Positions 40,116-55,996 of a stretch of DNA of 64,000 nucleotides are shown piece after piece (positions within the stretch are counted from its first letter, which is position 1; each line of letters opens with the position of its first letter). Source of the stretch: an uncultured Kaistella sp. (GTDB taxonomy: Bacteria > Bacteroidota > Bacteroidia > Flavobacteriales > Weeksellaceae). The notes under the pieces were generated by a model. That model had not been told where the DNA came from. It did not search any database and was given only the letters and a program-made list of their open reading frames with translations. A program made the translations under genes and the position numbers. The stretch is taken from NCBI GenBank assembly GCA_964532055.1, contig CAZHFE010000001.1:3576-67575 (forward strand), given 5' to 3'.

Positions 40116-40188
40116 GCGAAAATAGCTCAGCTGGTAGAGCGCAACCTTGCCAAGGTTGAGGTCGCGGGTTCGAACCCCGTTTTTCGCT
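40116..40188 (+). tRNA. tRNA-Gly (GCC)
   Basis: GCGAAAA/TTTTCGC acceptor stem, TTGCCAA loop, GGGTTCGAACCC. Confidence 0.96.
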
Positions 40189-41831
40189 CATATTTCTACC
40201 TGCCTTGGTGGTGGAACTGGTAGACACGCAGGACTTAAAATCCTGTGTCCGCAAGGACGTACGGGTTCAAGTCCCGTCCGAGGTACATAGCGGGAGTTGG
40301 TTGAAAAATCATCTCCCGTTTCTTTTTTCAACCTCTGGAAATCTCGATTATACCTGCAAAGTAATGAGATTGCTTCATTAAAAGGAAGGGTTCGGAATTT
40401 ATTTTTTTCAAAAATTAATTTTTCTGTGAAGTACGAACCCAATAAAAGTACTTTCGTTTCTACAGTAGCATTTTTGTAAAAATCATCGAGATTTGAGATA
40501 ACCGTAAGTCCGAAAGATAGAAGTTTATTTAAATCATCATTGTAGTTACTATATTCGTTTTTTCTTAACTTCAAATCGACCAGCTCTGACTTTTTTATTT
40601 CCGACATTTTTAAATAGAGGCTGTCATCAATAATCCCATTTATATTTTTATTTACAAGTGCTATTTGCTCTTTTTCTAACTGGCATATTTTTTCCTCTAT
40701 ACTTTTTGATAGTCTAATGCTTTCTTGAAGAGTTTCTTGGTATTCATCAATTAGAATTTCTTCAAATAACTTTAGAATGCCTTTAGAGGGTTTTGCTTTA
40801 GAAAGAACTCTATATAATTCTTTGTGAATTATTTCAGGGGAATACTTCTCTCCACAGTTGTTTGAACATCTATATGAAGAATGAAATACCTTTTTCTGTT
40901 TTCCATTATTACTCTTACTTCCGTAGAGTGGGCTACCACAGCAAGCACATACCAAAAACCCACTTAAAGGAAAGTCAGGGTTTTTAGGTCGTTTCTTTTT
41001 AATCATCCTGTTTCTGCCTTTTTTGATGTCCTGCACCGTGTTAAATAATTTTTCCGGGATGATTGCTTCGTGCAGCCCTTTTTGCAAATTGTAAGGAGGT
41101 ATTTTATGCTTTTTAAGGTCAATATAACCTGCGTACAAAATATTACTCAGGATTATGCTTAATGACGATTCAGAAATATTTAGTCCTTCTGCCTTATATT
41201 TTTTTACCAACTCTGCCTGTGTATATAAACCAGTCGAGTAATCTTCAAATAACTGTCTTATTAGAGGTGCTTTTTCATTTGGTACTATGCCTTTTTTTAA
41301 AGAACCATCTTCATTAATTCTTCCCCACTTATAACCATTCGGGGGAGTTTTAATATATCTTCCCTTCTTCATTGCTCTTCTTTCCCCAAGCCTTGTCCGT
41401 TCGTTAATGATCGCCCTCTCATATTCAGCAAAAGTAAACTTCAAATGCATTATCATTCTACCTTGTGCAGAATCAATATCATTAATCCATTCATCAACGA
41501 AATTAACTTCAATACCTAATTTATTGATGTCTTCATAAGCCTCAACACCTGTCTTAACCCCTCTTGTAAATCTATCGGCTTTTTTAGTTAAAAAGAGGTT
41601 AATTTCACCTTTATTTTCTTTCAAAAATTTATGCGCTTTTTCAAATTGAGGTCTTTTAAAGTCCTTTCCTGAATAAACATCTACATAAGTATCTAAAAGA
41701 ATAATGTTATTGTTTATACAAAAATTTTTAATGCTTTCTTTTTGGCTTTCAAGTGAAGTACCATCTTCTTGGCTAACAGAACTAACACGTAAATATCCTA
41801 CCGCTGTTTTATATGTTTTTTTCTTCTCCAT
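40188..41831 (-). CDS. Large serine recombinase (integrase); C-terminus reads through attL antisense to tRNA-Leu
   Basis: GYLRVSS catalytic motif, SGKDFKRP, KADRFTR, AEYERAIINERT, recombinase domain, zinc ribbon CACC...YRCSNNC, coiled coil. Confidence 0.95.
   Translation of the reverse strand: MEKKKTYKTAVGYLRVSSVSQEDGTSLESQKESIKNFCINNNIILLDTYVDVYSGKDFKRPQFEKAHKFLKENKGEINLFLTKKADRFTRGVKTGVEAYEDINKLGIEVNFVDEWINDIDSAQGRMIMHLKFTFAEYERAIINERTRLGERRAMKKGRYIKTPPNGYKWGRINEDGSLKKGIVPNEKAPLIRQLFEDYSTGLYTQAELVKKYKAEGLNISESSLSIILSNILYAGYIDLKKHKIPPYNLQKGLHEAIIPEKLFNTVQDIKKGRNRMIKKKRPKNPDFPLSGFLVCACCGSPLYGSKSNNGKQKKVFHSSYRCSNNCGEKYSPEIIHKELYRVLSKAKPSKGILKLFEEILIDEYQETLQESIRLSKSIEEKICQLEKEQIALVNKNINGIIDDSLYLKMSEIKKSELVDLKLRKNEYSNYNDDLNKLLSFGLTVISNLDDFYKNATVETKVLLLGSYFTEKLIFEKNKFRTLPFNEAISLLCRYNRDFQRLKKETGDDFSTNSRYVPRTGLEPVRPCGHRILSPACLPVPPPRQVEI
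40202..40285 (+). tRNA. tRNA-Leu (TAA); integration target
   Basis: GCCTTGG/CCGAGGT acceptor stem, CTTAAAA loop, variable arm, GGGTTCAAGTCCC. Confidence 0.96.
40271..40300. other. attL site
   Basis: tRNA 3' end gtcccgtccgag-GT-acatagcgggag. Confidence 0.75.
40291..40328 (+). terminator. Element-supplied terminator after the tRNA cluster
   Basis: cgggag-t-tggtt-gaaa-aatca-t-ctcccg followed by tttctttttt. Confidence 0.65.
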
Positions 41832-41985
41832 CTTTTATTTTTGTTTTTACAGAATTGGCTTTAAACTCTTTGATAACTATCTTAGCCTGTCTTTGGAGTT
41901 CCCAAAGAATTTTTTCTATCTCATCATCAGAAAAATTTTCTCCTGCGTTTTGGAGGGTTTTTCGGGCTTTCTCCTTTGTAACCAT
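41809..41985 (-). CDS. 58-aa ORF immediately upstream of the recombinase (not in ORF track)
   Basis: MVTKEKARKTLQNAGENFSDDEIEKILWELQRQAKIVIKEFKANSVKTKIKDGEEKNI*. Starts 4 nt after the upstream stop and overlaps the LSR start by 23 nt. Confidence 0.65.
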   Translation of the reverse strand: MVTKEKARKTLQNAGENFSDDEIEKILWELQRQAKIVIKEFKANSVKTKIKDGEEKNI

Positions 41986-41988
41986 CAC

Positions 41989-42786
41989 TTATAGTTTTAT
42001 ACTTGTCTCTAATTCATCATTAATGGCAATATCAATCTTCTGAAAACTCCAGCTAATGATTGTCTCCATTACTTCTTCATTGAGAAGTAAACTTTGGGAA
42101 TTTTCAATAAACCTTATATCCCCTTCTTTCAGATGAAACTTGAGGTACTGATAATCGCCCGTTTTAAGAAAGTAAAGCAATAGCATTTTATTTTTATCCT
42201 CTAACGGGTTTTGTATTTTAAAATCTGTTGAAAGAGCATTATTAGGATATTCTAAAGCGATATAATCCTCCAGTTTGAAAATTGTGTGAACAGGAAACCT
42301 TCCTTTAGAAAACCATCTCATATAGGCTTCAAACGAGTATAATCTTGCGTGTCCCTCAATAGGAATATATAAGACTTGGGGCATTGAAAACAAAGTTTTA
42401 ATAACCTCCAACTTAAAAAGTGAAAAATCTTTTATAGATGATTCTAATAATGTCTTTCTCGCATCCTTTAAAATATTTATGGGAATCCCAAACTTACGAG
42501 CATCAAAAACTATATTGAGCCAAATATTCTCCAACCTATTAAATCTTCGTATTTTTCCTTTGTCTCCGTCCTGTAATTTAATGACAGCTTGAGCGAGCCA
42601 ACTATTAACAATTCTTGCAGGATGTTCTGGTTTGATTCCTGTTTTATTTTCCTGCAAACAGTAGTTTAATACATCGTTTCTCAAAAAATGAACGACCTCT
42701 AATGGCAAATCTCCATAAACATCCAATACTGCTTTTTCGCTAATACTTTTTTCCTGTTGTCTTGCTTTCTCAATATCAAATCCCAT
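41989..42786 (-). CDS. Protein with MerR-like HTH region
   Basis: ARIVNSWLAQAVIK...IRRFNRLENIWLNIVFDARKFGIPINILK resembles the MerR wHTH pattern; TATATTTG promoter at 42803-42810. Confidence 0.55.
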   Translation of the reverse strand: MGFDIEKARQQEKSISEKAVLDVYGDLPLEVVHFLRNDVLNYCLQENKTGIKPEHPARIVNSWLAQAVIKLQDGDKGKIRRFNRLENIWLNIVFDARKFGIPINILKDARKTLLESSIKDFSLFKLEVIKTLFSMPQVLYIPIEGHARLYSFEAYMRWFSKGRFPVHTIFKLEDYIALEYPNNALSTDFKIQNPLEDKNKMLLLYFLKTGDYQYLKFHLKEGDIRFIENSQSLLLNEEVMETIISWSFQKIDIAINDELETSIKL

Positions 42787-42883
42787 AATCGAAATATTTT
42801 TACAAATATATAAATTTTACAATTAAATGTAACAAAAATTTTATTTTATTTCTTTTCGATGTATTATGAATTGTTTTCTACAA

Positions 42884-42913
42884 AAAAGACTTTCTAATAA
42901 TAAGAAAGTCTTT
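42884..42913 (-). terminator. Terminator after qatD
   Basis: aaagacttt(t)ct-aataata-agaaagtcttt. Confidence 0.65.
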
Positions 42914-42948
42914 AAAATGAAATAGTACTTTTATTAAGTGTAAAGTTC

Positions 42949-45044: not shown

Positions 45045-45777
45045 ATACGGTTAATATATCTTGCTGAATATTTTTAACAACCCTATCGGCTTCGTCAGAA
45101 CTCCAATCAATGTTTTGTAGTGGATTTCTTTTGTGCATATCTCCAACTCTTTCAACTATAAAATTTTTTATTTGGTTGAAAAGGTTGTTACAATCACTTT
45201 CACTCTTATTTTTTATTAAATTTTCATAGAACCACTTTGATAAAAGCTCATTAATGTAATATCCAAAATATTTTACTATTACATCTTCCAATGTATTTGT
45301 GGTAAAAGTCTCCTGTAATAAAGTTTGTACTTCATCAATGGATTCAGCTTGCCCCATTAGTTCTTCTAATAATAATCTTGTGGCTTCTTTTGCCGCATTA
45401 TCATCAATTGAAGTTGCATTACCGGAACAATACTCAATCAAATGATTAATTACATCGCCAACCGTTTTATTATCAATATCGGTTAAACCAGTAGATTCAA
45501 GAGTTTCTCTAATATTATTACCCGAACTGATAAACTTTGAAAAGACTCCTCCGATTTTCTTTGCAGTTCTGATACTGCTTCTTCCTCCTGCTTTTGAACC
45601 GCCACGCCCTCCTGTTGATGCTCCGCCCAATGCTGAAACAAAATGCCCCATAATGTTCTGTAGCTTCTGAGCTGGAAGAACAGAAGAATCACAATTTGAG
45701 GTAAGCGAAGAACTAAGCGTACCCCAATTCGGAACCATTGAGTGTTTTACATCAGAAAATGATTTAGATGTTCCCAT
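45037..45777 (-). CDS. qatB: Qat defence subunit B
   Basis: MGTS N-terminus, Gly-rich GGASTGGRGGS segment, position between qatA and qatC. Confidence 0.8.
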   Translation of the reverse strand: MGTSKSFSDVKHSMVPNWGTLSSSLTSNCDSSVLPAQKLQNIMGHFVSALGGASTGGRGGSKAGGRSSIRTAKKIGGVFSKFISSGNNIRETLESTGLTDIDNKTVGDVINHLIEYCSGNATSIDDNAAKEATRLLLEELMGQAESIDEVQTLLQETFTTNTLEDVIVKYFGYYINELLSKWFYENLIKNKSESDCNNLFNQIKNFIVERVGDMHKRNPLQNIDWSSDEADRVVKNIQQDILTVFE

Positions 45778-45779
45778 TT

Positions 45780-47678
45780 CTATTTTTTTAGATTAAACGC
45801 TTTACTTGCTCTTGATTTTCCATCTTTGAAATAATCATTCAAAAACGTTCCAATTTCAGGTTCTGATTTAAAGTCTGCCAATCTCGTAGCAACCGCAGGT
45901 TCAATATCTGATACGCTGATTATTTTAAGAGTTTCCATATAGTGATAAACTGCATTTTCTATTTTATCTTCTGTCATTACATTGAAAATGTCATACAACC
46001 GCTTTTGCTGAGGATTCCTTTTTAAATTTGAAGATAAAAGATTGAAAAAAGCATCTTTTTCAATATCGCTAAAAGGTTGAAATTTTTCATATAGTAGAGA
46101 TTTTGTAACTGTTGCCGTCATATTATCGGGTAATAACTCATTAAACAATGCCCTTACTACTGGTGGAATCATACTCGTTGCAGTGATAGAATTTTCTAAT
46201 TTATCACGGGCAATCCAATAATAATCCCGTAAATCAACTCCTGATAACAATGGTTCTATTTGAAACCATTTTATTATTTTGGGTTTACTCCATTCTTTGA
46301 AATCAGTATCTTTTATTTCCAAAAGAACATCCTCAATGCCTTTATCCTTACATATAGATTCTATTTCTGTTATTTCTTTTGGCATTCCGTCTTGGGAAAT
46401 TTGCCACTCAAATAATTTTTTGAACAGCTTGGGTTCTGAATATTCAAGTATCATCATTTTTGCAAGAACAGCATCATTAAAACTTTGTAACGATGCAACT
46501 TCGGCAAGTCTTTTTCTAATTGTATAAGTATTTAGAAACCGTTTAATCTGTCGGGGATTTCCATACAAACTATTTGTAATCAATGGTACTAATGCCGGAA
46601 TCGTAATTACATTATCTTTAACTTTTCCAAATTCCTCTGCTTCTAAAATCTTTTCAAAATTTGATAATCCAAATGCAGAATATTTATTCGTTAACCTATA
46701 CTTCTGAAATTCAGCAAGTACGTTTTCAAATTTGGTATTATCAATCTCTTTTTTACAGATAAGCATTGATATATAAGTTTCGACTTCTGATTCCGACAAT
46801 CTCGGTAACGAATATGGAAGCTGAATTAATTTTTCTAAATAATCAATAACAATTCGGTTGTTATCTTCTTCGATTTCTTTATTATTTTTGTATTTATTTT
46901 CAATGGCATATTTCACTATTCGAGGGTCTGCTCCAATAATGAATGCTGTTTTGGGTACGTTTAGGAAAAGTTTAATTGCTTCAAGGTTCTCAATAATTCT
47001 TTCGGGGCTACATCTGTCTAAATCATCAATAATTACAACCAATCTTTTAAAGTTTGTGGCTTCTAAGAGTTCAGCAAAATCTTTTCTAAATTCTGCCACC
47101 GCATTAGTGGAATTTTTATCTTCCTCTTTACTTTCTTTTATAAAGGCTTTAAATGTTTCCTGACCTTCTTTGGAGTTAAGTTTTTCTATTATTTTTTCAG
47201 GATTATCTCCCCATTCGGTTAGCTTTTGAACGGCAAAAGGAAGTAAACTAATGCCTCCTGTAAAGTATGCAGAAACAGCGGGTAAGGCAACATTCTTCAT
47301 AACCATACCTGCTCCACGTATCCAATCAATAGATTTCCAAAGTTTCTTTGCTTTTTCTTTTATCGTATCCTTTATTTCGGCTGAAATCTTTTTATTGTCT
47401 TCCAATTCCTTAAGAATTGAATTTAGCAATGCGGCTTTAGCATCATCATATCCTTCAAAAGTCCATCCATTAAAGTATATGCAGAGAGAATCCTTATCAT
47501 CCTCCTTATCAAATTCTTCTTTTACTATTTGTAAGATACTGGATTTCCCACTTCCCCAATCGCCAAAAACGCCTATTGTAATCGGCAAAACAGACTCGTC
47601 ATTGATTATATTGATTAACAAATCTGCGTGTACTTTAAAACCTAAAAGGTCTTCGGAGGTTTCGTTATCTGCCCACAT
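45780..47678 (-). CDS. qatA: KAP-family P-loop NTPase, Qat defence subunit A
   Basis: MWADNET, IGVFGDWGSGKSS, FNGWTFEGYDDAK, IIDDLDRC, YLEKLIQ, GNPRQIKRFLN. Confidence 0.92.
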   Translation of the reverse strand: MWADNETSEDLLGFKVHADLLINIINDESVLPITIGVFGDWGSGKSSILQIVKEEFDKEDDKDSLCIYFNGWTFEGYDDAKAALLNSILKELEDNKKISAEIKDTIKEKAKKLWKSIDWIRGAGMVMKNVALPAVSAYFTGGISLLPFAVQKLTEWGDNPEKIIEKLNSKEGQETFKAFIKESKEEDKNSTNAVAEFRKDFAELLEATNFKRLVVIIDDLDRCSPERIIENLEAIKLFLNVPKTAFIIGADPRIVKYAIENKYKNNKEIEEDNNRIVIDYLEKLIQLPYSLPRLSESEVETYISMLICKKEIDNTKFENVLAEFQKYRLTNKYSAFGLSNFEKILEAEEFGKVKDNVITIPALVPLITNSLYGNPRQIKRFLNTYTIRKRLAEVASLQSFNDAVLAKMMILEYSEPKLFKKLFEWQISQDGMPKEITEIESICKDKGIEDVLLEIKDTDFKEWSKPKIIKWFQIEPLLSGVDLRDYYWIARDKLENSITATSMIPPVVRALFNELLPDNMTATVTKSLLYEKFQPFSDIEKDAFFNLLSSNLKRNPQQKRLYDIFNVMTEDKIENAVYHYMETLKIISVSDIEPAVATRLADFKSEPEIGTFLNDYFKDGKSRASKAFNLKK

Positions 47679-47759
47679 AAATTGTAATTGTTAATGTGTG
47701 AAAATTATTCAAAGTATTCTATGTTGTCAGCAAAAATATTTCATTACGATTAATAAATA

Positions 47760-47775
47760 TTACGGAAAACCGTAA
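47760..47775. repeat. TTACGG-N4-CCGTAA palindrome, copy 1
   Basis: ttacggaaaaccgtaa between the Sir2 remnant and qatA. Confidence 0.75.
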
Positions 47776-47800
47776 AAATGAATTTAGTATTAAAAAATAA

Positions 47801-48012
47801 TTTTTCATATTTATAGTTCTTATAAAATTCGGCAGAATTTATATTTTAGACAGATAAATATCTTTTTTCCTCTTCCAAATACAGTCATAAGCAGATTGAA
47901 TACCAGAACTAATAGACGCTCCAGCACCCAATAAAAAAGAATGCGGAACATCCAAATTCCATTTAAAAGACCTTAAAAATGCATCGTATTCAAGTAGTAT
48001 GTTTTCTGTCAT
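47801..48012 (-). pseudogene. Truncated, frameshifted Sir2-domain gene (resembles SPARSA Sir2-APAZ N-termini)
   Basis: MTENILLEYDAFLRSFKWNLDVPHSFLLGAGASISSGIQSAYDCIWKRKKDIYLSKI* (47839-48012); one extra A would continue it as SKNINSAEFYKNYK. Confidence 0.75.
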
Positions 48013-48043
48013 ATTAATTTACCTTTATATACAGACGGGTTAT

Positions 48044-48748
48044 TTATAAATATTTTAATAATTCTTCTGCCAACCTAAATACTGTAGTCGATGATTCTTC
48101 TTTCGCTGGATTTTTGTGGTCAAATTGTTCAAAGTTTCTTGTAGCTCTTGTAATAGCTAAATCAACTCTTTTCTTTTTTGTTTTCGTATCAATTCCGTCT
48201 AATAACTCAAAAAAATCCTCACTCACTTTTTTAGTCCCGTTTCCGTCATATGTTACGCCGAACGGTTTAAGTAATTCATTTATTTTGTCGTTGTAATCAC
48301 TCCTGTGCATTCCTCCTCCTTGATGGTCGTCAAAATGAAGAATTAACCAATACTCAAAAGATTGATTAGAATAAGCTACATTAAAATTTTGAGCTTCTGC
48401 TATTTGGATTGCACGATTAAAATCATTTTCAGTAAAGTCGTCTTTGTCAAATACACACCAAACTTGGTCATATTGCTTTTCGCCCGCTAATTGTTCTGCT
48501 CTATTGACCAACGATATTGTGTTATACCCTTCGCCAACTGATTTTACCGTTGCAGAAGAAAGTCTAAACTGATTGAAATAGGAAGGCTCTGTATTTTCAC
48601 CTTCACAAACAATCAATATCGAAGGTTTTTCAATCAATTCAGCATCTGGTCTTTCCAAATTTGGTTCAATCCGCCTTTTAGCTTTAAGTTGTTCCTTATG
48701 TTTTTGTTTAGCCGCTATTTGCTCAGCTCTTTTGTTCTTCATTTTCAT
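48044..48748 (-). CDS. RloB-family (AbiLii-like, TOPRIM-like) protein
   Basis: LIVCEGENTEPSYF, VWCVFDKD, AYSNQSFEYWLILHF, STTVFRL. Confidence 0.9.
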   Translation of the reverse strand: MKMKNKRAEQIAAKQKHKEQLKAKRRIEPNLERPDAELIEKPSILIVCEGENTEPSYFNQFRLSSATVKSVGEGYNTISLVNRAEQLAGEKQYDQVWCVFDKDDFTENDFNRAIQIAEAQNFNVAYSNQSFEYWLILHFDDHQGGGMHRSDYNDKINELLKPFGVTYDGNGTKKVSEDFFELLDGIDTKTKKKRVDLAITRATRNFEQFDHKNPAKEESSTTVFRLAEELLKYL

Positions 48749-50057
48749 ATTGCGGCATATTAAAATTTAGGTTATCAAAAAAGCCTAAATATGGAATAGC
48801 ACCATATTTACCTCTAATGTAATTATCTTCAAAAGGTTCATTTTTCTTAACTTCATCAGACTTAAAGTTTGCTAAAGAATATAGTTTAGCCTCACCGTAT
48901 TTATCTTTATTCGTAAACCAAATTTGGTCTCTTCTAAATAAGCCTGAACTTAATAAGTTAGTATCGTGAGTGTTGAAAATTAATTGAGCGTTTTTTGTAT
49001 TGAATTCTTTTGAGTTAAACAAAGAAACAATTTTACACACTAAATTGGGATGTAACTTTGAATCAAGTTCGTCAACAACTAAAGTGTCGCCGTTTTCAAT
49101 GACATCTAAAATAGGACCCGTTAAAGCAAAAAACTTTCTTGTCCCCGAAGATTCATCTTCATCAAGAGAAAAATTCACATTGCCCAATAATTGCTTATTT
49201 AAGTCATACTTTTTATGGGTTGTCAATATATCAGCAAAAAACTGAGTGTTTTCTTCTTTCATTTTCCTAATAATTTCATCCTTCATCTCTTTAGGCATTC
49301 CTGTAGGCAATTTATCAATATCCAATTTTTGAATCTTAATATCCTGAATCCCTAAGTCAGCAGCTTTTAATAATTCAAGAATTTTTGCTTTATGTGTTGG
49401 AATTTCGGTTTTGCCAACAGTAAAACCTTGATATCCGATTTCATCTAAACCTGAAAGGAATTTCAGTTTTTTAAACCAATCAACGACTGCAATAGCTATT
49501 TTTTCATTGAATTGTGCTGCAACTGAAATGAAAAGAGCATTATCTCTTACAAGCCCTCCTTTTATTACTGCTGAACCTCTTGTGAATTTTCTGCTATGAG
49601 TTTCAAATTGATTTCCATCTCTGTAAAACAATTCAATCTCCTTTGTTTTAGGTTTATGATATAGCCATTCTGAAACAATATTTTCTTTAGTCGCTTCAAA
49701 ACCATAACGAAATAATTCTCCATTAAAAAGAAAAATAATTTCAAATTCAGATGGCTCATTTTCGGTTTCTTTACTTAAACGAAATGGTTCAACTTCAATG
49801 CTTTCTCCTTTTTGAGTTTCTTTTGAACTATTAATCACAAAATATCTCATAAAAGCAATAGCATCTAAAAATTTACTTTTTCCACTTGCGTTTGCTCCAT
49901 AGATTACTGCACTTTTGAGTAATCTGTAATTAAATGTTTGGTCTTCAAAAACATTCTCTACTTCTCGTGTTTCTTTATCATAATTAGAAGCAATTAAACT
50001 CAAAGTTGCTTTATCCTTAAAGATTCTGAAATTTTTAACTGAAAATTGTAGAAGCAT
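48723..50057 (-). CDS. RloA/AbiLi-like ABC-type ATPase
   Basis: IYGANASGKS, ESSGTRKFF, LVVDELDSKLHP, QLIFNTHD, RRDQIWF, YIRGKYGAIP. Confidence 0.92.
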   Translation of the reverse strand: MLLQFSVKNFRIFKDKATLSLIASNYDKETREVENVFEDQTFNYRLLKSAVIYGANASGKSKFLDAIAFMRYFVINSSKETQKGESIEVEPFRLSKETENEPSEFEIIFLFNGELFRYGFEATKENIVSEWLYHKPKTKEIELFYRDGNQFETHSRKFTRGSAVIKGGLVRDNALFISVAAQFNEKIAIAVVDWFKKLKFLSGLDEIGYQGFTVGKTEIPTHKAKILELLKAADLGIQDIKIQKLDIDKLPTGMPKEMKDEIIRKMKEENTQFFADILTTHKKYDLNKQLLGNVNFSLDEDESSGTRKFFALTGPILDVIENGDTLVVDELDSKLHPNLVCKIVSLFNSKEFNTKNAQLIFNTHDTNLLSSGLFRRDQIWFTNKDKYGEAKLYSLANFKSDEVKKNEPFEDNYIRGKYGAIPYLGFFDNLNFNMPQYENEEQKS

Positions 50058-50361
50058 AATAATTTCGCTTTTGTTAAATTTTATTACAAAGATAATACTT
50101 ATTTATTTCGCATATACAAAATAAATGTAATTTTTAACAAATTTACGATTTAAAACGCTTTTATTTTACGAGTATTAACAAAATAATAATTTCCATAGAG
50201 GTGTTTTTATTATAAGATATTTTTAATACTTTATGATGGTTGATGTTTAATTTTGCAAAAATTCAGGTGTTTTTCAAGTGGAAACTCAAAGCCAAATTTA
50301 AAATCTCAACTTAACAAATATATCTCTTTAAAAGTTTTGCTACCTTTCTAATCATTCATAA

Positions 50362-50395
50362 AAAATGCTACTTATGTCTAAATAAGTAGCATTTT
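50362..50395 (-). terminator. Terminator after the OB-fold membrane gene
   Basis: aaaatgctactta-N8-taagtagcatttt. Confidence 0.75.
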
Positions 50396-50415
50396 ACTAT
50401 TATCAACTCAATTCA

Positions 50416-51672
50416 TCACTCCCACAACTCGCAATTTTTAACAACCACATCCGTCAGAGAACGTCCTGAGCAAGTTCCGATAATCTGAACCTTCTGACCT
50501 TTATTAAGTTGGGAAAGAACTTTATTATTTTTATCCGAGAAATAGCAGTTCACACTTTGCAGGTAGTCGATTTTCAGAGAAACATAAGGGTCATCCAATA
50601 CATCCTTTCCAATTGTTCCTACAACTCCTTTAATCAGTAGTCTTTTTCCTTTATATTGTCCATCTGCTGAAACTTCATTAGCTTCATAGGCATTGTAAAG
50701 TTCCGATGCTGATACTTCCATATCAACCTTTGGAAACAGCTTGCTGTTAGGGTCAACTTCTTTCAGCTTGGTTAAAAATCCGTCTTTGGTGGCAAGATAA
50801 GGATAGATATAACTTCCTTTGTCATTCCAAGAAGAAAGACCTTTATTTTTAGCCTCGTAAAGTGCTTCTAAATTTTGCTTATCCGGGTTCATTAAAGCAA
50901 AGAAAGGGGTTAAATCATAGTCGTATTTGATTTGCTGTGAGTTCATATTCGCATCATACGTCATTCCTTTTACTCCAGATGCATTGAATTTGTTTTTATA
51001 ACGGACAAAGACATCAATAATCTCTTCCGGCAATCCGCCATTTACAGTTGGCATAGCCAAAGCACCACACTTAACCACAAAATCCATTTTGTTTTCTCCG
51101 TCTTCGGAGGATGTTACCTGTTTTTCCAAATCTGCATTAATAGCATAATTCTTAGACGAAATATTAGTAATTCCATTGGTTATAGCGTTGAGAACCGGCA
51201 GATATTCCGAACTCACAACTTTTTCAGTCACCAGCTTAGTATAAACCGGATTTTCTTTTAATGCGGAAAGCAGTTTCTCTCTGTTGGCTTTCAACTCCGG
51301 AGAAAGAGAAGCAATATTTTTAGCCGATTCGTCAAGATAGCTTTGATAAGGGTTTTGATTGACAACCTCTTCGGTTTTTTCTTTTGTAATCGAAGTGGAA
51401 GCAGGAAATTTTGTTTTGTTGGCTGTTATTCCAATCAAAGCCAACAGCACAGCATAAGAAACATACCGGACAGCCCGACTGTTCCATTGCTTTAATTTTT
51501 GTTTTAAATTTTCCGAGACCGGAGGAAGGATAACCACTCCTAAAATTGCAGAAATTAATCCTGCGAGCACTTCTTTCTGTGCAATCATTCCGAGTGCGGC
51601 AATGATGAACAATGCACCGATAATAAACTTTACGATTCTCATAAGACTGATATTTTTAAAATTAAACTTCAA
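50416..51672 (-). CDS. Membrane-anchored protein with C-terminal tRNA_anti-like OB fold
   Basis: Three N-terminal TM helices; C-terminal VSASELYNAYEANEVSADGQYKGKRLLIKGVV...LNKGQKVQIIGTC. Confidence 0.8.
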   Translation of the reverse strand: MKFNFKNISLMRIVKFIIGALFIIAALGMIAQKEVLAGLISAILGVVILPPVSENLKQKLKQWNSRAVRYVSYAVLLALIGITANKTKFPASTSITKEKTEEVVNQNPYQSYLDESAKNIASLSPELKANREKLLSALKENPVYTKLVTEKVVSSEYLPVLNAITNGITNISSKNYAINADLEKQVTSSEDGENKMDFVVKCGALAMPTVNGGLPEEIIDVFVRYKNKFNASGVKGMTYDANMNSQQIKYDYDLTPFFALMNPDKQNLEALYEAKNKGLSSWNDKGSYIYPYLATKDGFLTKLKEVDPNSKLFPKVDMEVSASELYNAYEANEVSADGQYKGKRLLIKGVVGTIGKDVLDDPYVSLKIDYLQSVNCYFSDKNNKVLSQLNKGQKVQIIGTCSGRSLTDVVVKNCELWE

Positions 51673-51768
51673 TTTTATTCTCTTTCAGCCCCAGAAAGAT
51701 TCATAAAACCGGAAACCGACCTTTAATAAAATGAGTTTCCAATTTTAAAGATTGTTTATTGGTTTTCC

Positions 51769-51784
51769 TTACGGAAATCCGTAA
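51769..51784. repeat. TTACGG-N4-CCGTAA palindrome, copy 2
   Basis: ttacggaaatccgtaa, extended by flanking tattggtt/aaccaata. Confidence 0.75.
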
Positions 51785-51819
51785 AACCAATAAAAAAAGG
51801 CGTGAGGACTTAACCAAAC

Positions 51820-51931
51820 GCTTCAAAGGCATCGCCAAACGCCCTATAACAATATGGAAAGCCCCACACCAAGTGTGGTAGCGGTTTTCCATATTCTCTG
51901 TTATAATTTGAAATTGGCGATTTCTTGAAGC
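51820..51931 (-). ncRNA. Structured RNA candidate: five nested stems
   Basis: gcttcaa/ttgaagc, atcgccaa/ttggcgat, tataac/gttata, aatatggaaa/tttccatatt, ccacac/gtgtgg. Strand inferred from the flanking genes. Confidence 0.6.
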
Positions 51932-52220
51932 AAGAATATGATTACACTACTTTGTTTTATCTATATTAAATTTACTTTTCTTATAAGTTTTATTTTTTAA
52001 CTTCTGCTAATATAGAAATTTCCTTCCATAAATTAAATCGGTTGCTTTAAAATTATATTCCTTTAAAAATTTTCGCATCAGCGAAAATTCCTCTATTCAT
52101 GGTATTTTCAACGGGTTTGTTGAAATATTTTACATTCAAAATTCGGTTGTTTTTCCTGCGATATTTCCGTTCAAAATTCCTTTTGGTGTTATCCCTTTGC
52201 TTTTAAAATTTGAAGGAATT

Positions 52221-52898
52221 TTAAACCTCTATTTGCGCTTGAAAAAATCTATCATATAATATCAACACTTGAGATGAGGTAAATTCACAGCCTCTGCTGG
52301 TCTTGAAACCGCTTTTATTCAGCTCATCAGCAATCTTTCCGTAACTGTTTCCGGCATTTCGTAATGAAACAATGAGGGCAGTTGCCTTACGGTTGTTCTC
52401 ATTTTGAAGAGCCTTTAACCTCATCGCCTCGCTTCCCATTTGTCTGGCTTTGGCAGTTAGGTTATTTGGAGTTCCAAGTTTTACGCCTTTCGCTTTGAGT
52501 TCCTGAAGTGCAGCAATGGTTCTTTTGCTGATGAGTTCCCGCTCTTCTTGTGCAAGAACTGCCATTATTCCGATTGTAATCGAATTGGCTTCCGGCATAT
52601 CACAGCATTTGAAATCTATATTGCTATCCTTCAATAAAAAGATAAACCCAGCATTTCTGCTGAGTCTATCAAGTTTAGCGATGAGCAAGGTTGCACCTTC
52701 ATTCTTACTTTTCTCTATGGCTTTCAGGAGCTGAGATCTGTTATCATTCTTGCCACTCTCAATTTCCTCGAATTCGTCTATCAGAATATCATCATCTTTG
52801 AGATAATTTCTTACCATTGATTTCTGGGCTTCCAATCCTAAGCCGGAATTTCCTTGTCTCTGAGTTGACACTCTGTAATAGGCTATGTATTTTTTCAT
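52221..52898 (-). CDS. Small serine recombinase (resolvase/invertase family)
   Basis: YIAYYRVSTQRQ, ESGKNDNR, AKLDRLSRN, AQEERELISKRT, GVKLG, C-terminal HTH. Confidence 0.93.
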   Translation of the reverse strand: MKKYIAYYRVSTQRQGNSGLGLEAQKSMVRNYLKDDDILIDEFEEIESGKNDNRSQLLKAIEKSKNEGATLLIAKLDRLSRNAGFIFLLKDSNIDFKCCDMPEANSITIGIMAVLAQEERELISKRTIAALQELKAKGVKLGTPNNLTAKARQMGSEAMRLKALQNENNRKATALIVSLRNAGNSYGKIADELNKSGFKTSRGCEFTSSQVLILYDRFFQAQIEV

Positions 52899-53041
52899 TT
52901 TTAGTAGTTGGGTTGGTTTGTAATGGTGCTTGAACGCTCGTTTATGAAATTCAACGGCAGTGATTTCCTATGCAAATATTTAATTTTCAGGGTCTGATTC
53001 TCTTAAGCATGCCTCATTTGCCTCGTTATATGCACAAATTG

Positions 53042-53785
53042 TCACGAAAATTCAATGTGTTTTTTGTTTATTAAATCCACCTCTTCATTTAGCAAGTCGC
53101 TTGGAACTGTCCAGTAGGAAAGGCTTTTGTAAGTCCAGACCCTGTAAATTATATCCTCATATTCAACTAAATTCCCAAAGTACCTTATATGAGAAACTAT
53201 CTTCAAAAAAGTGGAATTATTGCCGAATTTCTCACGGATTGAATAGAAATGAGGATTGTTTTGCATCGTTTTAGCAAACGTCCATTCCATACGTTCTAAA
53301 GTTTCCCCTGCGAACTGGTCAGTCAGATTGAAATGACCTCTGAGTTTGTAGATGTCTTCACTCCAGTATTTGCGTTGGATGTTTTGGTCAATACCTGTTT
53401 CATCTTCTACAGGGATTTTGTTGGCTCTTAAAAAGTCTGCAAAGATGTGACGGTAGCAAAACTCGTTGCCTTCTCCATATCCGAGCAGGACAACCTTAGT
53501 GGTATTCTCTTCTTTGCAGAACTGTCTGAGGTCAGTCAGTAGTTTTTCTACTCCCTTTCTTTCCACCTTTTTCCGGTAAAGTAGATTACAGGCTAAAAAA
53601 TCTCCTGCTCTCTGATTATCATACATTCTGAATATACTGAACCCTACCAGCTTTCTGACCTTCTCCGAGTTTCTGAAACTTCCATAGACTTTCCCTACAA
53701 CGCTTACCAGTGTATAGCCTTCATAGGTTTTTGTGTTTAAACTCTCGAAACTTTCAGTAACTATCTGTAAATCTGCATTTTTCAT
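53042..53785 (-). CDS. DUF488-like domain fused to an uncharacterised WTFAKTM..PH.Y domain
   Basis: VVLLGYGEGNEFCYRHIFADFL resembles the DUF488 LLCxE..FCHRH motif; C-terminal WTFAKTMQNNPHFYSIR...SYWT. Confidence 0.55.
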   Translation of the reverse strand: MKNADLQIVTESFESLNTKTYEGYTLVSVVGKVYGSFRNSEKVRKLVGFSIFRMYDNQRAGDFLACNLLYRKKVERKGVEKLLTDLRQFCKEENTTKVVLLGYGEGNEFCYRHIFADFLRANKIPVEDETGIDQNIQRKYWSEDIYKLRGHFNLTDQFAGETLERMEWTFAKTMQNNPHFYSIREKFGNNSTFLKIVSHIRYFGNLVEYEDIIYRVWTYKSLSYWTVPSDLLNEEVDLINKKHIEFS

Positions 53786-53840
53786 TACTTAAAGATACAA
53801 AAATTTTCGCATACGCAAAAATAAATCACTGATATACTGT

Positions 53841-54035
53841 AAGTTACAATCAGGATGTCAAGTAACTTTATAAAAACTGCCTAACACTACTGCTGGTGGT
53901 TTGAATGTTTCTGACTCTTCCCATACTTCCTAACCCTATCTACCTTTCTCCTCTCTGCTATATAATTAATTTACTCTGTACTGTACAGAGTTCACAGAGT
54001 AAGGTGTAGGGGATATTTTCTTTTCCCCTATATAC
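53841..54035. other. Inverted-repeat cluster, candidate origin (oriV/oriT)
   Basis: aagttac/gtaactt (53841-53868), actctgtac-t-gtacagagt (53973-53991), tagggga/tccccta (54007-54030). Confidence 0.35.
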
Positions 54036-54061
54036 CCCATTACTACTGTACACATTTTTTC

Positions 54062-54814
54062 CTAATCAATTTTTTTAAATTTCCGCTTCAAATGAACATT
54101 GATTTTGATGAGGTCTGAGCCTTTGATTAAAATTCCTCTCGCTGATTTTATGCAATACTGTTTATTGAAACTGATGTGCTTCATAAATTCTGCACTCACT
54201 TTGTTTCCCCTATCATCTTCTAAATAAAAATGGTTTTTCTTAATCGAAATAAAGTTGTTTTTTAAAGCCTCTTTTTTCAAGTTCTCTGCTGTGGTAACAG
54301 AAACGCCCAAACACTTGGCAAAATACCTCACAGGAAGGTCGTAAAAGTTTTTAGGATAAGCATAGGTATTCATACTGGGTATTCCATTAATTACACCCGA
54401 CACCTTATTTTTCTTATCCGTAAATTTTTTTGAGTTCCTGTAAAATCCTATAAGTGCAGCAGCACAAAGTCCACGAAAATCTTTAAAATCATTTCTATCA
54501 AATTTTAGAGCAGTTTGTGAACTTAATCTGTATTGCCGTTTTAATTGAACATAACTTACTACCCTCAACGATTGTTTTTTGGAGTTAAAAGAAAGCCATC
54601 TTTTTCTCAGCATCCAATCCAGAGAACTCTTAAAGGTTTTTACATTAATCCCTATTTCTTTTGCCTATATTTTATGACTGTCGGCTTTCACAGACAAATG
54701 ACCGCTGGATATGCACTTTAGAAAAATGTATATTTTAAGATGATTGAGTTTTCGTCTGGTAATAGCAAATTGTATTAACCCAATAGGAATTGTTGTGTAA
54801 GCCCCCTTCATCAT
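54062..54814 (-). pseudogene. Rep-like/HTH protein (250 codons) interrupted by an in-frame TAG at 54665-54667
   Basis: Frame is open from ATG 54814 (MMKGAYTTIPIGLIQFA...) to 54062 except for TAG at codon 50. HTH-like segments AKEIGINVKTFKSSLDW and YFAKCLGVSVTTAENLK. Confidence 0.65.
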
Positions 54815-54942
54815 AACCTTGCGAAATTTTGAGGGGTTTGTGCTAATGGGTATAAGCCTGCCTCTTCCAAGATGGGCTTCAGGTCATACAATCTCTTTAA
54901 ACCTTCATAAAATTGGTTCGTAATGAGTTTCGCTACGGGTAC
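54811..54942 (-). other. Orphan 3' exon-like segment: alternative LSR C-terminus used in the excised form
   Basis: In frame with the LSR across the core: VP-VAKLITNQFYEGLKRLYDLKPILEEAGLYPLAQTPQNFARL*; the stop overlaps the next ATG. Confidence 0.7.
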
Positions 54943-54955
54943 TTAAAACACTGAT
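54925..54955. other. attR site
   Basis: gagtttcgctacgg-GT-acttaaaacactg. Confidence 0.75.
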
Positions 54956-54978
54956 GATTTGATAATTGTCAGTGTTTT
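54945..54978. terminator. Host hairpin (original tRNA-Leu/pyrD convergent terminator)
   Basis: aaaacactga...tcagtgtttt starting 3 nt after the GGTAC core. Confidence 0.7.
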
Positions 54979-54988
54979 TGTTTAACAG

Positions 54989-55996
54989 TTACCCTATATT
55001 TAATATTTCCTCATTAATTTTCTTGATTAAACTAGACCCCTCATAAATAAATCCGGTATACAACTGTACCAAACTTGCTCCTGCATTGAGTTTTTCTATG
55101 GCGTCTTTTGCAGAATGAATTCCGCCGACTCCGATAATCGGGAATGCTTTGTTGCTTTTTTCTGAAAGAAAACTAATAACTTCCGTAGAACGTTCTGTTA
55201 AAGGTTTTCCGGAAAGTCCGCCTGTTTCTTTTTTGTTTTCGGAAACTAAATTTTCTCTCGACAAAGTTGTGTTTGTTGCAATAACACCTGCAATTTTGGT
55301 TTCTTTCACAATGTCGATAATATCCAGCAGTTGTTCGTCGGATAAATCCGGTGCGATTTTCAGAAGAATCGGTTTCGGGTTTTGCTTTTCAGAATTTAGT
55401 TTTTGCAGTTCACATAAAAGTTTCGTTAAAGGTTCTTTATCCTGCAATTCCCGAAGATTCGGCGTGTTTGGCGAAGACACATTAACTACAAAATAATCCA
55501 CATAATCAAACAGTTTTTCAAAACAGATTTTGTAATCATCTGCTGCATTTTCATTCGGCGTGATTTTATTTTTCCCGATGTTTCCGCCAATCAGAATATT
55601 TTTATTTTTGTTTAATCTTTCAACTGCCGCATCAACTCCGTCATTATTAAATCCCATTCTGTTGATGATTCCCGAATCTTCAATCAGCCGAAACAATCTT
55701 TTTTTATCGTTTCCTGGTTGTGCTTTCGGCGTTAAAGTCCCGATTTCGACAAACCCGAATCCTAAATCTGACAGTTCTTTGTAGAGTTTCGCATCTTTAT
55801 CAAAACCTGCCGCTAAACCAACCGGATTTTTGAATTTTAAACCGAAAACTTCACGCTCTAATCGTTTGTCTTCAATCGGTCTCGGAAAAAATAATTTTGC
55901 TAAAAACCCGAAATTCTTTAAGAAAGAAAAAGTAAAATGATGAACTTTTTCGGGGTCGAATTTGAAAAGAATAGGTCGGATTATGTTTTTGTACAT
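54989..55996 (-). CDS. pyrD: Quinone-dependent dihydroorotate dehydrogenase
   Basis: [44 protein letters not shown]. Confidence 0.97.

What the first reader, a model, noticed from the sequence alone, without database searches (positions are those of the whole stretch)
54062..54814. Excision-gated rep-like gene, now carrying one amber stop
Seen: the gene really starts at 54814, not 54613; its ATG overlaps the stop of the orphan LSR tail; a single TAG interrupts codon 50. Integrated, its upstream region is only the start-less tail and the host terminator. On the circle it becomes the fourth gene of the MerR-like/58-aa/LSR operon, translationally coupled to the full-length integrase. Inference: recombination itself switches on the replication or maintenance gene; the amber codon suggests domestication of the island as a fixed defence locus, or a sequencing error.
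Basis: partly seen in the sequence, partly recalled or inferred. Interest (0 to 1): 0.7.

Follow-up and report, generated by a model that had tools for sequence, protein, structure and literature searches.

The report
Excision-wired rep-like gene, amber-inactivated
At the edge of a 14.65-kb anti-phage island sits a 250-codon DNA-binding gene resembling a replication initiator; it appears wired to be expressed only after the island excises and re-joins its integrase gene, and in this strain one real stop codon has killed it.

Summary
On the minus strand, 54814..54062 is one 250-codon frame. Its ATG overlaps (ATGA) the stop of a start-less 43-codon frame, which is the severed C-terminus of the large serine recombinase (LSR) at the island's other end. 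Codon 50 is TAG.

Intact 248-250-aa homologues (75-92% identical) all have TGG (Trp) there. Four independently assembled metagenome runs carry the same TAG, so it is a real nonsense mutation.

The protein belongs to a large unannotated family (721 clusters) of tandem winged-helix proteins. Distant members match phage replication-initiator families, and a phased 10-bp repeat array always lies just downstream.

In ten elements (35-92% identity) the LSR-tail stop overlaps the start or lies within 7 nt of it. A terminator-like hairpin lies just upstream in every junction read, and was folded in six. No excised form, transcript or replication was observed, so excision gating and Rep function remain inferences.

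The four closest relatives whose downstream genes were read also carry a terminase-small-subunit-like gene that this copy lacks. That supports decay of the mobility backbone while the QatABCD and AbiL cargo stays intact. The logic is known from Tn916; the wiring through a recombinase gene that spans its own attP looks new.

The parts
54062..54814 (-). Rep-like tandem winged-helix gene: 250 codons plus stop, a pseudogene by one nonsense codon
   Evidence: Single frame. Intact 248-250-aa homologues at 75-92% identity. AF2 model pLDDT 91.9.
54665..54667 (-). Amber codon TAG replacing the invariant Trp50 (TGG)
   Evidence: Alignment. TGG read in L001, L004, L015, L016 and L028. Identical in contigs of 4 runs.
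54811..54942 (-). Start-less C-terminal tail of the LSR (43 codons plus TGA). It also forms the P' arm of attP. Its stop overlaps the target ATG.
   Evidence: The tail is conserved as protein, with synonymous change, in 10 loci.
54938..54942 (-). attR copy of the crossover core GTACC
   Evidence: Shared with attL. The same GTACC(C) appears at the junctions of L001, L004, L016, L025 and L028.
54945..54978 (.). Host hairpin with a flanking A-run and U-run (terminator of the tRNA operon and of pyrD), ending 2-5 nt before the crossover; a likely insulator
   Evidence: Fold -11.1 kcal/mol, z -5.1. Equivalent hairpins in 5 other loci, z -4.9 to -6.9. The simple terminator scan did not call it.
40282..40286 (-). 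attL copy of the core GTACC, at the 3' end of tRNA-Leu(taa)
40188..41831 (-). LSR gene in its integrated form: 547 aa. Residues 1-517 are native; the last 30 are encoded by the antisense of tRNA-Leu.
   Evidence: Pfam Resolvase, Recombinase and Zn_ribbon_recom. All 54 database homologues cover only about 92-96% of the rebuilt 558-aa protein.
41809..41988 (-). 59-aa ORF overlapping the LSR start; second gene of the operon
   Evidence: Counterparts of 54-57 aa in Riemerella, Epilithonimonas, Polaribacter and L027.
41989..42786 (-). 265-aa first gene of the LSR operon; no family match
   Evidence: Counterparts of 265-268 aa.
42803..42836 (-). Bacteroidetes-type promoter of the operon: TTTG, 22 nt, TATATTTG, lying 17 nt before the ATG
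   Evidence: Read. The consensus itself is from my own knowledge of Bacteroidetes promoters.
54021..54061 (-). Conserved non-coding block GAAAAAATGTGTACAGTAGTAATGGGGTATATAGGGG, directly 3' of the target stop
   Evidence: Conserved in 7 of 8 loci, down to 52% protein identity. Consensus RNA fold is weak at -4 kcal/mol.
53877..53960 (-). Purine-rich TAG/GTTAG repeat region (candidate iterons or origin); degenerate in this copy
   Evidence: Runs of at least 3 TAG at exact 10-bp spacing occur only here, about 80-135 nt 3' of the target stop, in 15 of the 24 loci held at that point. Four-TAG runs: 0 expected by chance.
53042..53785 (-). Conserved 247-aa backbone gene of unknown function, with its own promoter
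   Evidence: 80% identical to the E. pallida counterpart. Present.
52899..53041 (-). Gap where relatives carry a 133-145-aa TerS-like gene; about 400 bp is missing here
   Evidence: Alignment. TerS PHROGs hit at 1.2e-9. ORF maps.
52221..52898 (-). Small serine recombinase (resolvase), the last backbone gene before the variable cargo
   Evidence: Pfam Resolvase 1.4e-25. Conserved position.

Best explanation
Shown:
- The window holds a 14.65-kb island (about 40287-54937) integrated at the 3' end of tRNA-Leu(taa) by a large serine recombinase.
- The recombinase's own reading frame spans attP. Integration cuts off its last 41 codons and leaves them, start-less, at the far end of the island. There they overlap the ATG of the 250-codon gene at 54814..54062.
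- That gene encodes a protein with two winged-helix domains.
- In this strain Trp50 (TGG) has become TAG. The stop falls before the recognition helix of the first domain, so no intact protein can be made.
- This copy also lacks the TerS-like gene that the four closest relatives whose downstream genes were read (L001, L004, L015, L016) carry.

Inferred:
- The protein is the element's replication initiator. It would act on the conserved block and phased 10-bp repeats immediately downstream.
- When integrated, the gene has no promoter and no upstream translation, and sits behind a terminator hairpin, so it is silent.
- After excision the joint rebuilds a four-gene operon (265 aa, 59 aa, full-length LSR, initiator) driven by the promoter at 42803-42836. 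The initiator is then translationally coupled to the LSR, and replication starts only on the free circle.
- The copy here is therefore a decaying mobile backbone that still carries intact QatABCD and AbiL defence cargo.
For: Gene model and mutation. The TAG recurs in four runs.

Split LSR:
-.
- All 54 homologues lack the tail. Four of the six read in full end in tRNA-antisense peptide.
- The same 265/57-aa/LSR operon occurs in Riemerella, Epilithonimonas and Polaribacter.

Coupling conserved across attP:
- ATGA overlap in the window, L001, L004, L015, L016, L028 and L042.
- TAATG overlap in L041.
- 3-nt and 7-nt spacers in L008 and L040.
- The tail is conserved as protein with third-position change.

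Insulation:
- Hairpins with z -4.9 to -6.9 abut the crossover in 6 of 6 loci folded.
- No TTTG tetramer occurs in the 175 nt between the pyrD stop and the ATG (read).
- The operon start has TTTG-22-TATATTTG.

DNA binding and Rep-likeness:
- AF2 pLDDT 91.9, two winged-helix domains.
- HTH_36 in 37 of 90 family members.
- Twenty-six hits to replication-initiator, O-like or DnaD-like PHROGs among 90 members, against 4 hits to regulator/HTH families.
- Seven BFVD matches at E<=1e-3, six of them with TMq 0.38-0.53. One is named replication protein O. A named replication initiator protein follows at E 7.8e-3.
- RepA_N N-terminal domains at E about 0.03, sharing a W-x-x-D/N...G/S-x-Y/L wing motif.
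- Phased TAG arrays lie only next to the gene.
- In tyrosine-integrase relatives the gene follows int and HTH_17. From my own knowledge, that is where satellite islands keep rep.

Decay: TerS-like gene absent. Cargo intact.

Precedent for the logic: Tn916 (PMC11658703).
Against: - No excised form was seen. There were no joints in the four runs, and island depth equals flank depth.
- No attP-form contig turned up in protein, viral or metagenome searches.
- There are no transcript data for any copy.
- The target and its close relatives match no Pfam, NCBIfam or PHROG family.
- No PDB fold match reaches E<=1e-3. The best are ordinary winged-helix regulators, and Rep_3 structures reach only TM 0.32-0.34.
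- The repeat array in this window is degenerate.
- Homologues in tyrosine-integrase elements are not split from their operon.
- L004 and L015 have a one-mismatch -7-like box (AAnnTTTG) 7 nt before the ATG, so a weak internal promoter cannot be excluded.
- pyrD lies upstream on the same strand, and read-through of a weak hairpin is possible.
Confidence: 0.55

Rival explanations
1. The protein is a transcription factor rather than an initiator. Examples would be a switch that turns the 247-aa/TerS/resolvase module on or off after excision, or a repressor of the element. It would bind the conserved block, or the TTTCGCATnnGCGAAA palindromes, as operators.
For: All the best PDB fold matches are winged-helix regulators such as BusR/GntR, IclR, PadR and MarR. 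The profile also hits the DeoR HTH at E 0.008. A palindrome overlaps the promoter of the next gene and recurs after the resolvase gene. There is no helicase, primase or nuclease domain.
Against: Named sequence and viral-fold relatives are overwhelmingly replication initiators. Initiators of the lambda O, Rep_3 and RepA_N type are themselves only winged-helix proteins (my own knowledge). An array of 3-6 in-phase 10-bp repeats next to the gene looks more like iterons than an operator.
Confidence: 0.22
2. The gene is not excision-gated. It is expressed from the integrated island by an unrecognised promoter in the tail or by read-through from pyrD, and the tight spacing to the LSR tail is only genome compaction.
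For: Bacteroidetes promoters are poorly predicted, and the sigma-70 scan is uninformative here. L004 and L015 have a near -7 box 7 nt upstream of the ATG. pyrD is co-oriented. The simple scan did not call the hairpin a terminator. Tyrosine-integrase relatives express the homologue from an unsplit operon.
Against: Start/stop overlap is kept in 8 of 10 elements down to 35% identity, which points to selection for coupling. The near -7 box is absent in the window, L001 and L016. No TTTG occurs in the 175 nt upstream. A stable A-run/U-run hairpin abuts the crossover in every locus folded.
Confidence: 0.2
3. The TAG is a sequencing or assembly artefact and the gene is intact.
For: Only assembled contigs, not raw reads, could be examined. 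All four runs come from one study, and contigs drop rare variants.
Against: Four separate assemblies at 5-11x depth agree with no difference over 1.1 kb. The site is not in a homopolymer. A second, independent lesion (TerS-like gene lost) lies in the same backbone.
Confidence: 0.03

Closest known systems
Tn916 excision-coupled expression (Porf7 reads across the circle joint; terminator T1 acts as insulator) - PMC11658703
   Same: DNA-processing and replication genes have no promoter while integrated. They are joined to a promoter at the other end only after circularisation. A terminator at the element's edge blocks host read-through. The rationale is also the same: do not fire replication from an integrated element.
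   Different: Tn916 uses a tyrosine recombinase and an RNA antiterminator, and its joint lies between genes. Here the joint lies inside the recombinase ORF, the downstream gene is also translationally coupled to it, and the insulator is the host tRNA terminator rather than an element sequence. Nothing here has been tested experimentally.
State-dependent promoter switching of int in ICEKp1, ICEclc and ICEEc1 - PMC13023037
   Same: The transcription unit of a mobility gene differs between the integrated and excised states because recombination changes what lies upstream. These elements also sit beside a tRNA gene.
   Different: There the integrase gene itself changes promoter. Here a downstream rep-like gene gains or loses both its promoter and its upstream cistron.
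SSV1-type 'suicidal' integrases of archaea - PMC8371274
   Same: The recombination site lies inside the recombinase's own gene, so integration partitions the gene.
   Different: Those are tyrosine recombinases that are split so as to be inactivated. The review states that self-disrupting recombinases are known only in Archaea. Here a bacterial serine recombinase loses only its last 41 residues and keeps its catalytic, recombinase and zinc-ribbon domains.
Integration-dependent immunity of mycobacteriophage BPs (attP inside the repressor gene) - PMC4557955
   Same: Integration swaps the C-terminus of an element protein, producing two isoforms that report the integrated versus free state.
   Different: The gene affected there is the repressor, not the recombinase, and no downstream gene is uncoupled.
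Rep-ori modules of phage satellites (SaPI/PICI; Vibrio PLE, which has an LSR integrase, PMC6002521) - largely my own knowledge
   Same: Small tRNA- or site-specific islands with an integrase, an initiator next to an iteron-type origin, a TerS-like packaging gene in relatives, and anti-phage function.
   Different: SaPI Rep is a helicase paired with a primase. Here there is only a 250-aa tandem winged-helix protein. No helper phage, capsid-remodelling gene or induction data are known, and expression control by excision is not described for those satellites.
Iteron-binding initiators (lambda O, plasmid Rep_3/RepE, RepA_N)
   Same: Winged-helix DNA-binding architecture, similar size, and a gene adjacent to short phased repeats.
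   Different: No significant direct sequence or PDB fold match. The link runs through distant family members and predicted viral structures only.

Membership tests
Iteron-type replication initiators (lambda O-like / RepA_N / Rep_3) | Significant match of the protein itself to a curated initiator model | tested here: not met
   Pfam, NCBIfam and PHROGs give no hit for the target or for P0003. RepA_N chains score only E about 0.03 with the family profile.
Iteron-type replication initiators (lambda O-like / RepA_N / Rep_3) | Homology to initiators through intermediate family members | tested here: inconclusive
   HTH_36 in 37 of 90 members. Replication-initiation, O-like or DnaD-like PHROGs account for 26 hits among 90 members, best 1.5e-9. 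The matches probably cover one winged-helix domain only.
Iteron-type replication initiators (lambda O-like / RepA_N / Rep_3) | Winged-helix DNA-binding fold (two domains in Rep_3) | tested here: met
   AF2 pLDDT 91.9, with WH1 at about 7-105 and WH2 at about 162-245. BFVD full-length matches at E down to 3.8e-9 include a protein named replication protein O. PDB Rep structures reach only TM 0.32-0.34.
Iteron-type replication initiators (lambda O-like / RepA_N / Rep_3) | Adjacent origin with repeated binding sites | tested here: inconclusive
   Phased TAG repeats at 10-bp spacing lie only 3' of the gene in 15 of 24 loci, with four-TAG runs not expected by chance. The window's own array is degenerate, and no clear AT-rich unwinding element was found.
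Iteron-type replication initiators (lambda O-like / RepA_N / Rep_3) | Supports origin-dependent replication | not testable with these tools
   Needs a replication assay.
Excision-coupled gene expression (Tn916 type) | No promoter for the gene inside the integrated element | tested here: inconclusive
   No TTTG in the 175 nt upstream. No conserved -7/-33 box in 10 aligned junctions. Promoter prediction in Bacteroidetes is weak.
Excision-coupled gene expression (Tn916 type) | A promoter at the other end reads across the joint after circularisation | tested here: met
   Met by sequence only. A canonical promoter lies before the 265-aa gene. All four genes are co-oriented and overlapping or abutting once attP is rebuilt.
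Excision-coupled gene expression (Tn916 type) | Insulating terminator at the element edge | tested here: met
   Hairpins of -11 to -17 kcal/mol, flanked by an A-run and a U-run, lie 2-5 nt from the crossover in 6 of 6 loci folded. Function was not assayed.
Excision-coupled gene expression (Tn916 type) | Measured difference in expression between integrated and excised states | not testable with these tools
   No RNA runs hold this or related islands.
Phage satellite (PICI-like) island | Site-specific integrase, size about 10-15 kb, specific att site | tested here: met
   LSR, 14.65 kb, tRNA-Leu 3' end, GTACC core.
Phage satellite (PICI-like) island | Packaging-redirection gene (TerS or similar) | tested here: not met
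   Absent in the window. Present in relatives L001, L004, L015 and L016; the L004 and L016 proteins were scanned and hit phrog_4044 at 1.7e-7 and 1.2e-9.
Phage satellite (PICI-like) island | Induction and packaging by a helper phage | not testable with these tools
   No relatives were found in viral contigs.

The most novel reading that the evidence does not exclude
A whole family of Flavobacteriia defence islands uses a serine recombinase gene that spans its own attP as a physical sensor of state. Integration into a tRNA 3' end swaps the recombinase's last 41 residues for tRNA-antisense-encoded peptide. At the same stroke it unplugs a translationally coupled replication initiator, parking it behind the tRNA's own terminator. 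Excision restores both. The two recombinase isoforms might even set directionality without a classical directionality factor. This would be the first bacterial, serine-family case of a self-partitioning recombinase, and a new way to license replication only on the free circle.
Probability: 0.3. Interest if true: 0.8.

Novelty: new variant of a known kind. Interest (0 to 1): 0.55.

Why it matters
Mobile islands must not fire their origin while they sit in the chromosome. Tn916 solves this with promoter separation plus an insulator. This family seems to reach the same end more economically, by placing attP inside the recombinase ORF with the initiator overlapping its stop codon.

If confirmed, several things follow:
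- It gives a compact, portable design in which a gene is on only when the element is excised.
- It identifies a large unannotated protein family (721 clusters) as the likely initiator of Flavobacteriia islands that ferry defence systems.
- It extends self-partitioning recombinases from archaeal tyrosine enzymes to bacterial serine enzymes.

The amber codon, together with the lost TerS-like gene, is an ordinary but clear snapshot of a mobile defence island becoming a fixed chromosomal locus.

Tried and rejected
- A Python script to tabulate the junctions failed because the script machine was lost. All junctions were read by eye instead.
- Pfam, NCBIfam and PHROGs on the target and close relatives gave nothing.
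- PDB sequence search with the shallow profile gave noise.
- Foldseek against PDB with both models gave no E<=1e-3. The results are generic winged-helix regulators, so I make no Rep claim from PDB.
- I searched for the excised form in several ways, without success:
  - The rebuilt 558-aa LSR found no homologue with the tail.
  - The two longest-covering hits, P0181 and P0183, proved not to be attP forms.
  - Viral contigs gave no relative.
  - None of the six metagenome loci whose ORFs were listed, out of 18 found, has an LSR directly upstream.
  - The four runs show no excision or circle joints.
- The sigma-70 promoter scan and a Bacteroidetes -33/-7 pattern search over the window were uninformative: 275 hits against 256 expected.
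- Rfam found nothing in 53700-55050.
- The conserved 3' block is not a convincing RNA structure, at -4 kcal/mol consensus.
- The Riemerella 10K genomic island (PMC6764341) was checked as a possible described relative. It is a tyrosine-integrase island with no evident target homologue, and its att sequence is absent from my loci.
- An RDF role for the target was considered and rejected. A factor needed for excision would not be wired to appear only after excision.
- Suppression of the TAG was considered. The nearby tRNA-Leu(tag) reads CUA codons and is not an amber suppressor.
- Names for 10 distant family members were looked up. Those that carry a name are all 'hypothetical protein'.

Full report
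**1. Observation**

On the minus strand, 54814..54062 is one frame of 250 sense positions plus a stop.
- It is interrupted once, by TAG at 54667-54665 (codon 50).
- ATG 54814-54812 overlaps TGA 54813-54811 of a start-less frame: VPVAKLITNQFYEGLKRLYDLKPILEEAGLYPLAQTPQNFARL*.
- In the target's own frame a TGA lies at 54886-54884, with no start codon before 54814. So 54814 is the first possible start.
- The ORF lister's 183-aa product (54062..54613) is only the piece after the stop.

**2. The full-length gene is real**

- A search with the read-through protein found ten proteins of 245-250 aa covering 98-100% of it at 75-84% identity. A 92% one came from a metagenome scan.
- All have Trp at position 50, an invariant column.
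- TGG was read at that codon in L001, L004, L015, L016 and L028.
- A profile search of 1.84 billion representatives gave 721 clusters at E<=1e-3. Nearly all are 240-270 aa and align from profile position 1-8.
- The lesion is therefore TGG>TAG, a C>T change at 54666 on the + strand. Every other invariant residue is retained, so the inactivation is recent.

**3. The stop is not an artefact**

Four metagenome runs of one study hold the locus. Their separately assembled contigs (depth about 5-11x) are identical to the window over 54000-55100. Only contigs, not reads, were available, so a minority TGG allele cannot be excluded.

**4. The setting**

The island:
- Low-GC DNA from about 40287 to 54937 lies between tRNA-Leu(taa) (40202-40286, +) and the pyrD terminator.

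The split recombinase:
- A large serine recombinase ORF (41831..40188; Resolvase, Recombinase, Zn_ribbon_recom) leaves its native sequence at ...SRYVP. It then reads 30 codons of tRNA antisense.
- GTACC occurs at both junctions. Joining attL-left to attR-right restores one 558-codon frame ending in the orphan tail.

Cargo and remaining genes:
- The cargo is a complete QatABCD system and AbiLi/AbiLii.
- There is also an OB-fold membrane protein, a small serine recombinase and a conserved 247-aa gene.

**5. The split recombinase is the rule in this family**

- The rebuilt 558-aa LSR found 54 homologues across Flavobacteriia: Epilithonimonas, Riemerella, Flavobacterium, Nonlabens, Tenacibaculum and Polaribacter. 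Every one covers only about 92-96% of the query.
- Of six read in full, four end in tRNA-antisense peptide such as GLEPVRP. The other two end in unrelated sequence.
- The upstream 265-268-aa and 54-59-aa genes are conserved.
[quoted passage not shown] I found no bacterial counter-example in the library.

**6. The junction is conserved**

I read the region upstream of the target homologue in nine other integrated elements.
- The LSR-tail stop overlaps the target ATG as ATGA in L001, L004, L015, L016 (E. pallida DSM 18015), L028 and L042.
- It overlaps as TAATG in L041.
- It lies 3 nt away in L008 (Aquimarina agarilytica) and 7 nt away in L040.
- Target identity across these ranges from 35% to 92%.
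- The tail is conserved as protein, with third-position change. It is therefore translated somewhere, which can only be in the attP form.

**7. What lies upstream when integrated**

- A stable hairpin flanked by an A-run and a U-run ends 2-5 nt before the crossover in all six loci folded (-11 to -17 kcal/mol; z -4.9 to -6.9). It is the host tRNA/pyrD terminator.
- Between the pyrD stop and the ATG (175 nt) there is no TTTG tetramer. By contrast, the operon's first gene is preceded by TTTG-22 nt-TATATTTG.
- L004 and L015 have a one-mismatch -7-like box 7 nt before the ATG. The window, L001 and L016 do not.
- Generic promoter scans were uninformative.
- Silence in the integrated state is thus plausible but unproven.

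**8. What the protein is**

Structure:
- With a 90-sequence alignment, AF2 gives pLDDT 91.9 and pTM 0.88.
- The model has a winged helix at about 7-105, a long helix at 113-136, a flexible linker, and a second winged helix at about 162-245.
- The amber codon lies in the helix before the first recognition helix. Neither the 49-aa fragment nor a product restarted at Met68 has an intact first domain.

PDB comparisons:
- PDB fold search gives only generic winged-helix regulators below significance. Rep_3 structures have the largest global TM, at 0.32-0.34.

Evidence pointing to replication:
- HTH_36 in 37 of 90 family members.
- PHROG matches among members are mostly replication initiation, O-like and DnaD-like families: 26 hits against 4 to regulator/HTH families, best 1.5e-9.
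- BFVD gives seven matches at E<=1e-3, six with TMq 0.38-0.53 (TMq 0.48-0.53 for four). One is named replication protein O. A named replication initiator protein follows at E 7.8e-3.
- The family profile weakly hits RepA_N N-terminal domains at E about 0.03, aligned over the wing motif.

**9. A cis element next to the gene**

- Directly after the stop lies a conserved block, GAAAAAATGTGTACAGTAGTAATGGGGTATATAGGGG.
- A purine-rich region of TAG/GTTAG repeats follows.
- Runs of at least three TAG at exactly 10-bp spacing occur in 15 of the 24 loci held at that point. In each they occur only about 80-135 nt downstream of the target stop. This includes Aquimarina and the tyrosine-integrase elements. 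Four-TAG runs are expected 0 times by chance.
- The window's array is degenerate.
- The block is not a convincing RNA structure, and Rfam is silent.
- I read this region as a candidate origin or binding array. It is not proven.

**10. Modularity**

- The backbone of target, 245-aa gene, 122-145-aa gene and small resolvase, followed by variable defence cargo, recurs in all relatives.
- In a sister lineage at 52-54% identity the same backbone follows a tyrosine integrase, a 223-aa gene and an HTH_17 gene, with only 12 nt before the target.
- In that lineage nothing is split. Excision gating is therefore a feature of the LSR lineage.
- The gene's position after int and xis-like genes matches where satellite islands keep rep (my own knowledge).

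**11. Decay in this copy**

- L001, L004, L015 and L016 carry a 133-145-aa gene between the 245-aa gene and the resolvase. Scans of the L004 and L016 proteins match terminase small subunits (phrog_4044 1.2e-9).
- The window lacks about 400 bp there.
- That makes two independent lesions in the mobility backbone, while the LSR, tail, att cores and defence cargo remain intact.
- This fits an element drifting towards a fixed defence locus.
- Island depth equals flank depth, and no excision joints appear in the four runs.

**12. Comparison and verdict**

- The logic is that of Tn916. There, replication and transfer genes lack a promoter when integrated, are read from Porf7 across the joint after excision, and are shielded by a terminator (PMC11658703).
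- State-dependent int promoters in ICEKp1 are another relative (PMC13023037).
- Partition of a gene by attP is known for SSV1-type integrases (PMC8371274) and for the BPs repressor (PMC4557955).
- What I have not found described is the combination. A bacterial serine recombinase ORF spans attP, and an initiator-like gene overlaps its stop, so that one crossover changes the recombinase C-terminus and unplugs the downstream gene.
- It is a new variant of a known kind, of moderate interest.

Noticed in passing
window 40188-41831 and 54811-54942: The LSR reading frame spans attP. All 54 database homologues are in the severed (attL) form, and four of six read in full end in tRNA-antisense peptide. 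A 2021 review says self-disrupting recombinases are known only in Archaea. The integrated 547-aa and free 558-aa isoforms may differ in activity or directionality.
   Followed up: partly
window 53877-54061; L004 10881-10913; L010 9851-9893; L008 10841-10863: A conserved non-coding block sits right after the target stop, followed by TAG-containing repeats at exact 10-bp spacing. In each ~5-20-kb locus these repeats occur only at this spot. This is a candidate origin or protein-binding array.
   Followed up: partly
window 52899-53041 (compare L016 11819-12256): A terminase-small-subunit-like gene (133-145 aa) present in L001, L004, L015 and L016 is missing here. Its presence in relatives suggests the family are phage-satellite-like islands.
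   Followed up: partly
window 53805-53820 and 52071-52086: The 16-bp palindrome TTTCGCAT(nn)GCGAAA occurs twice. One copy overlaps the promoter of the 247-aa gene and the other lies just past the resolvase gene, so together they bracket the backbone module. They could be operators or resolvase sites.
   Followed up: no
window 42949-50057: The cargo is a complete QatABCD system (QatA 1.4e-113, QatC 2e-92, QatD 1.6e-61) plus AbiLi/AbiLii. All ORFs are intact.
   Followed up: yes
window 52221-52898; L001, L004, L010, L015, L016: A small serine recombinase always sits at the border between the conserved backbone and the variable defence cargo. This matches the recent report that small serine recombinases mark defence loci (PMC13552941).
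   Followed up: partly
L010-L014, L017-L019, L030-L037: The same target/245-aa/resolvase backbone occurs behind a tyrosine integrase and an HTH_17 gene instead of the LSR. This is modular exchange of the integration module between otherwise related islands.
   Followed up: partly
L025 7734-10332; L004 4015-9728: Other integrative elements (tyrosine integrase, HTH_17, in one case a Terminase_2 gene) lie directly next to the LSR island. This indicates tandem arrays at the same tRNA hotspot.
   Followed up: no
window 54945-54978; L016, L004, L028, L042 equivalents: The hairpins abutting the crossover are similar between hosts, with compensatory stem changes and a shared AAUCA..UGAUU inner stem. 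The recombinase's attB half-site appears to be the tRNA terminator itself.
   Followed up: partly
window 41809-41988: A conserved 54-59-aa ORF overlaps the LSR start in every relative examined. Its function is unknown; it is a candidate directionality or regulatory factor.
   Followed up: no
L022-L024 11549-11623: The Riemerella anatipestifer relatives of this LSR integrate at tRNA-Met rather than tRNA-Leu, and carry type I restriction-modification and GmrSD cargo.
   Followed up: no
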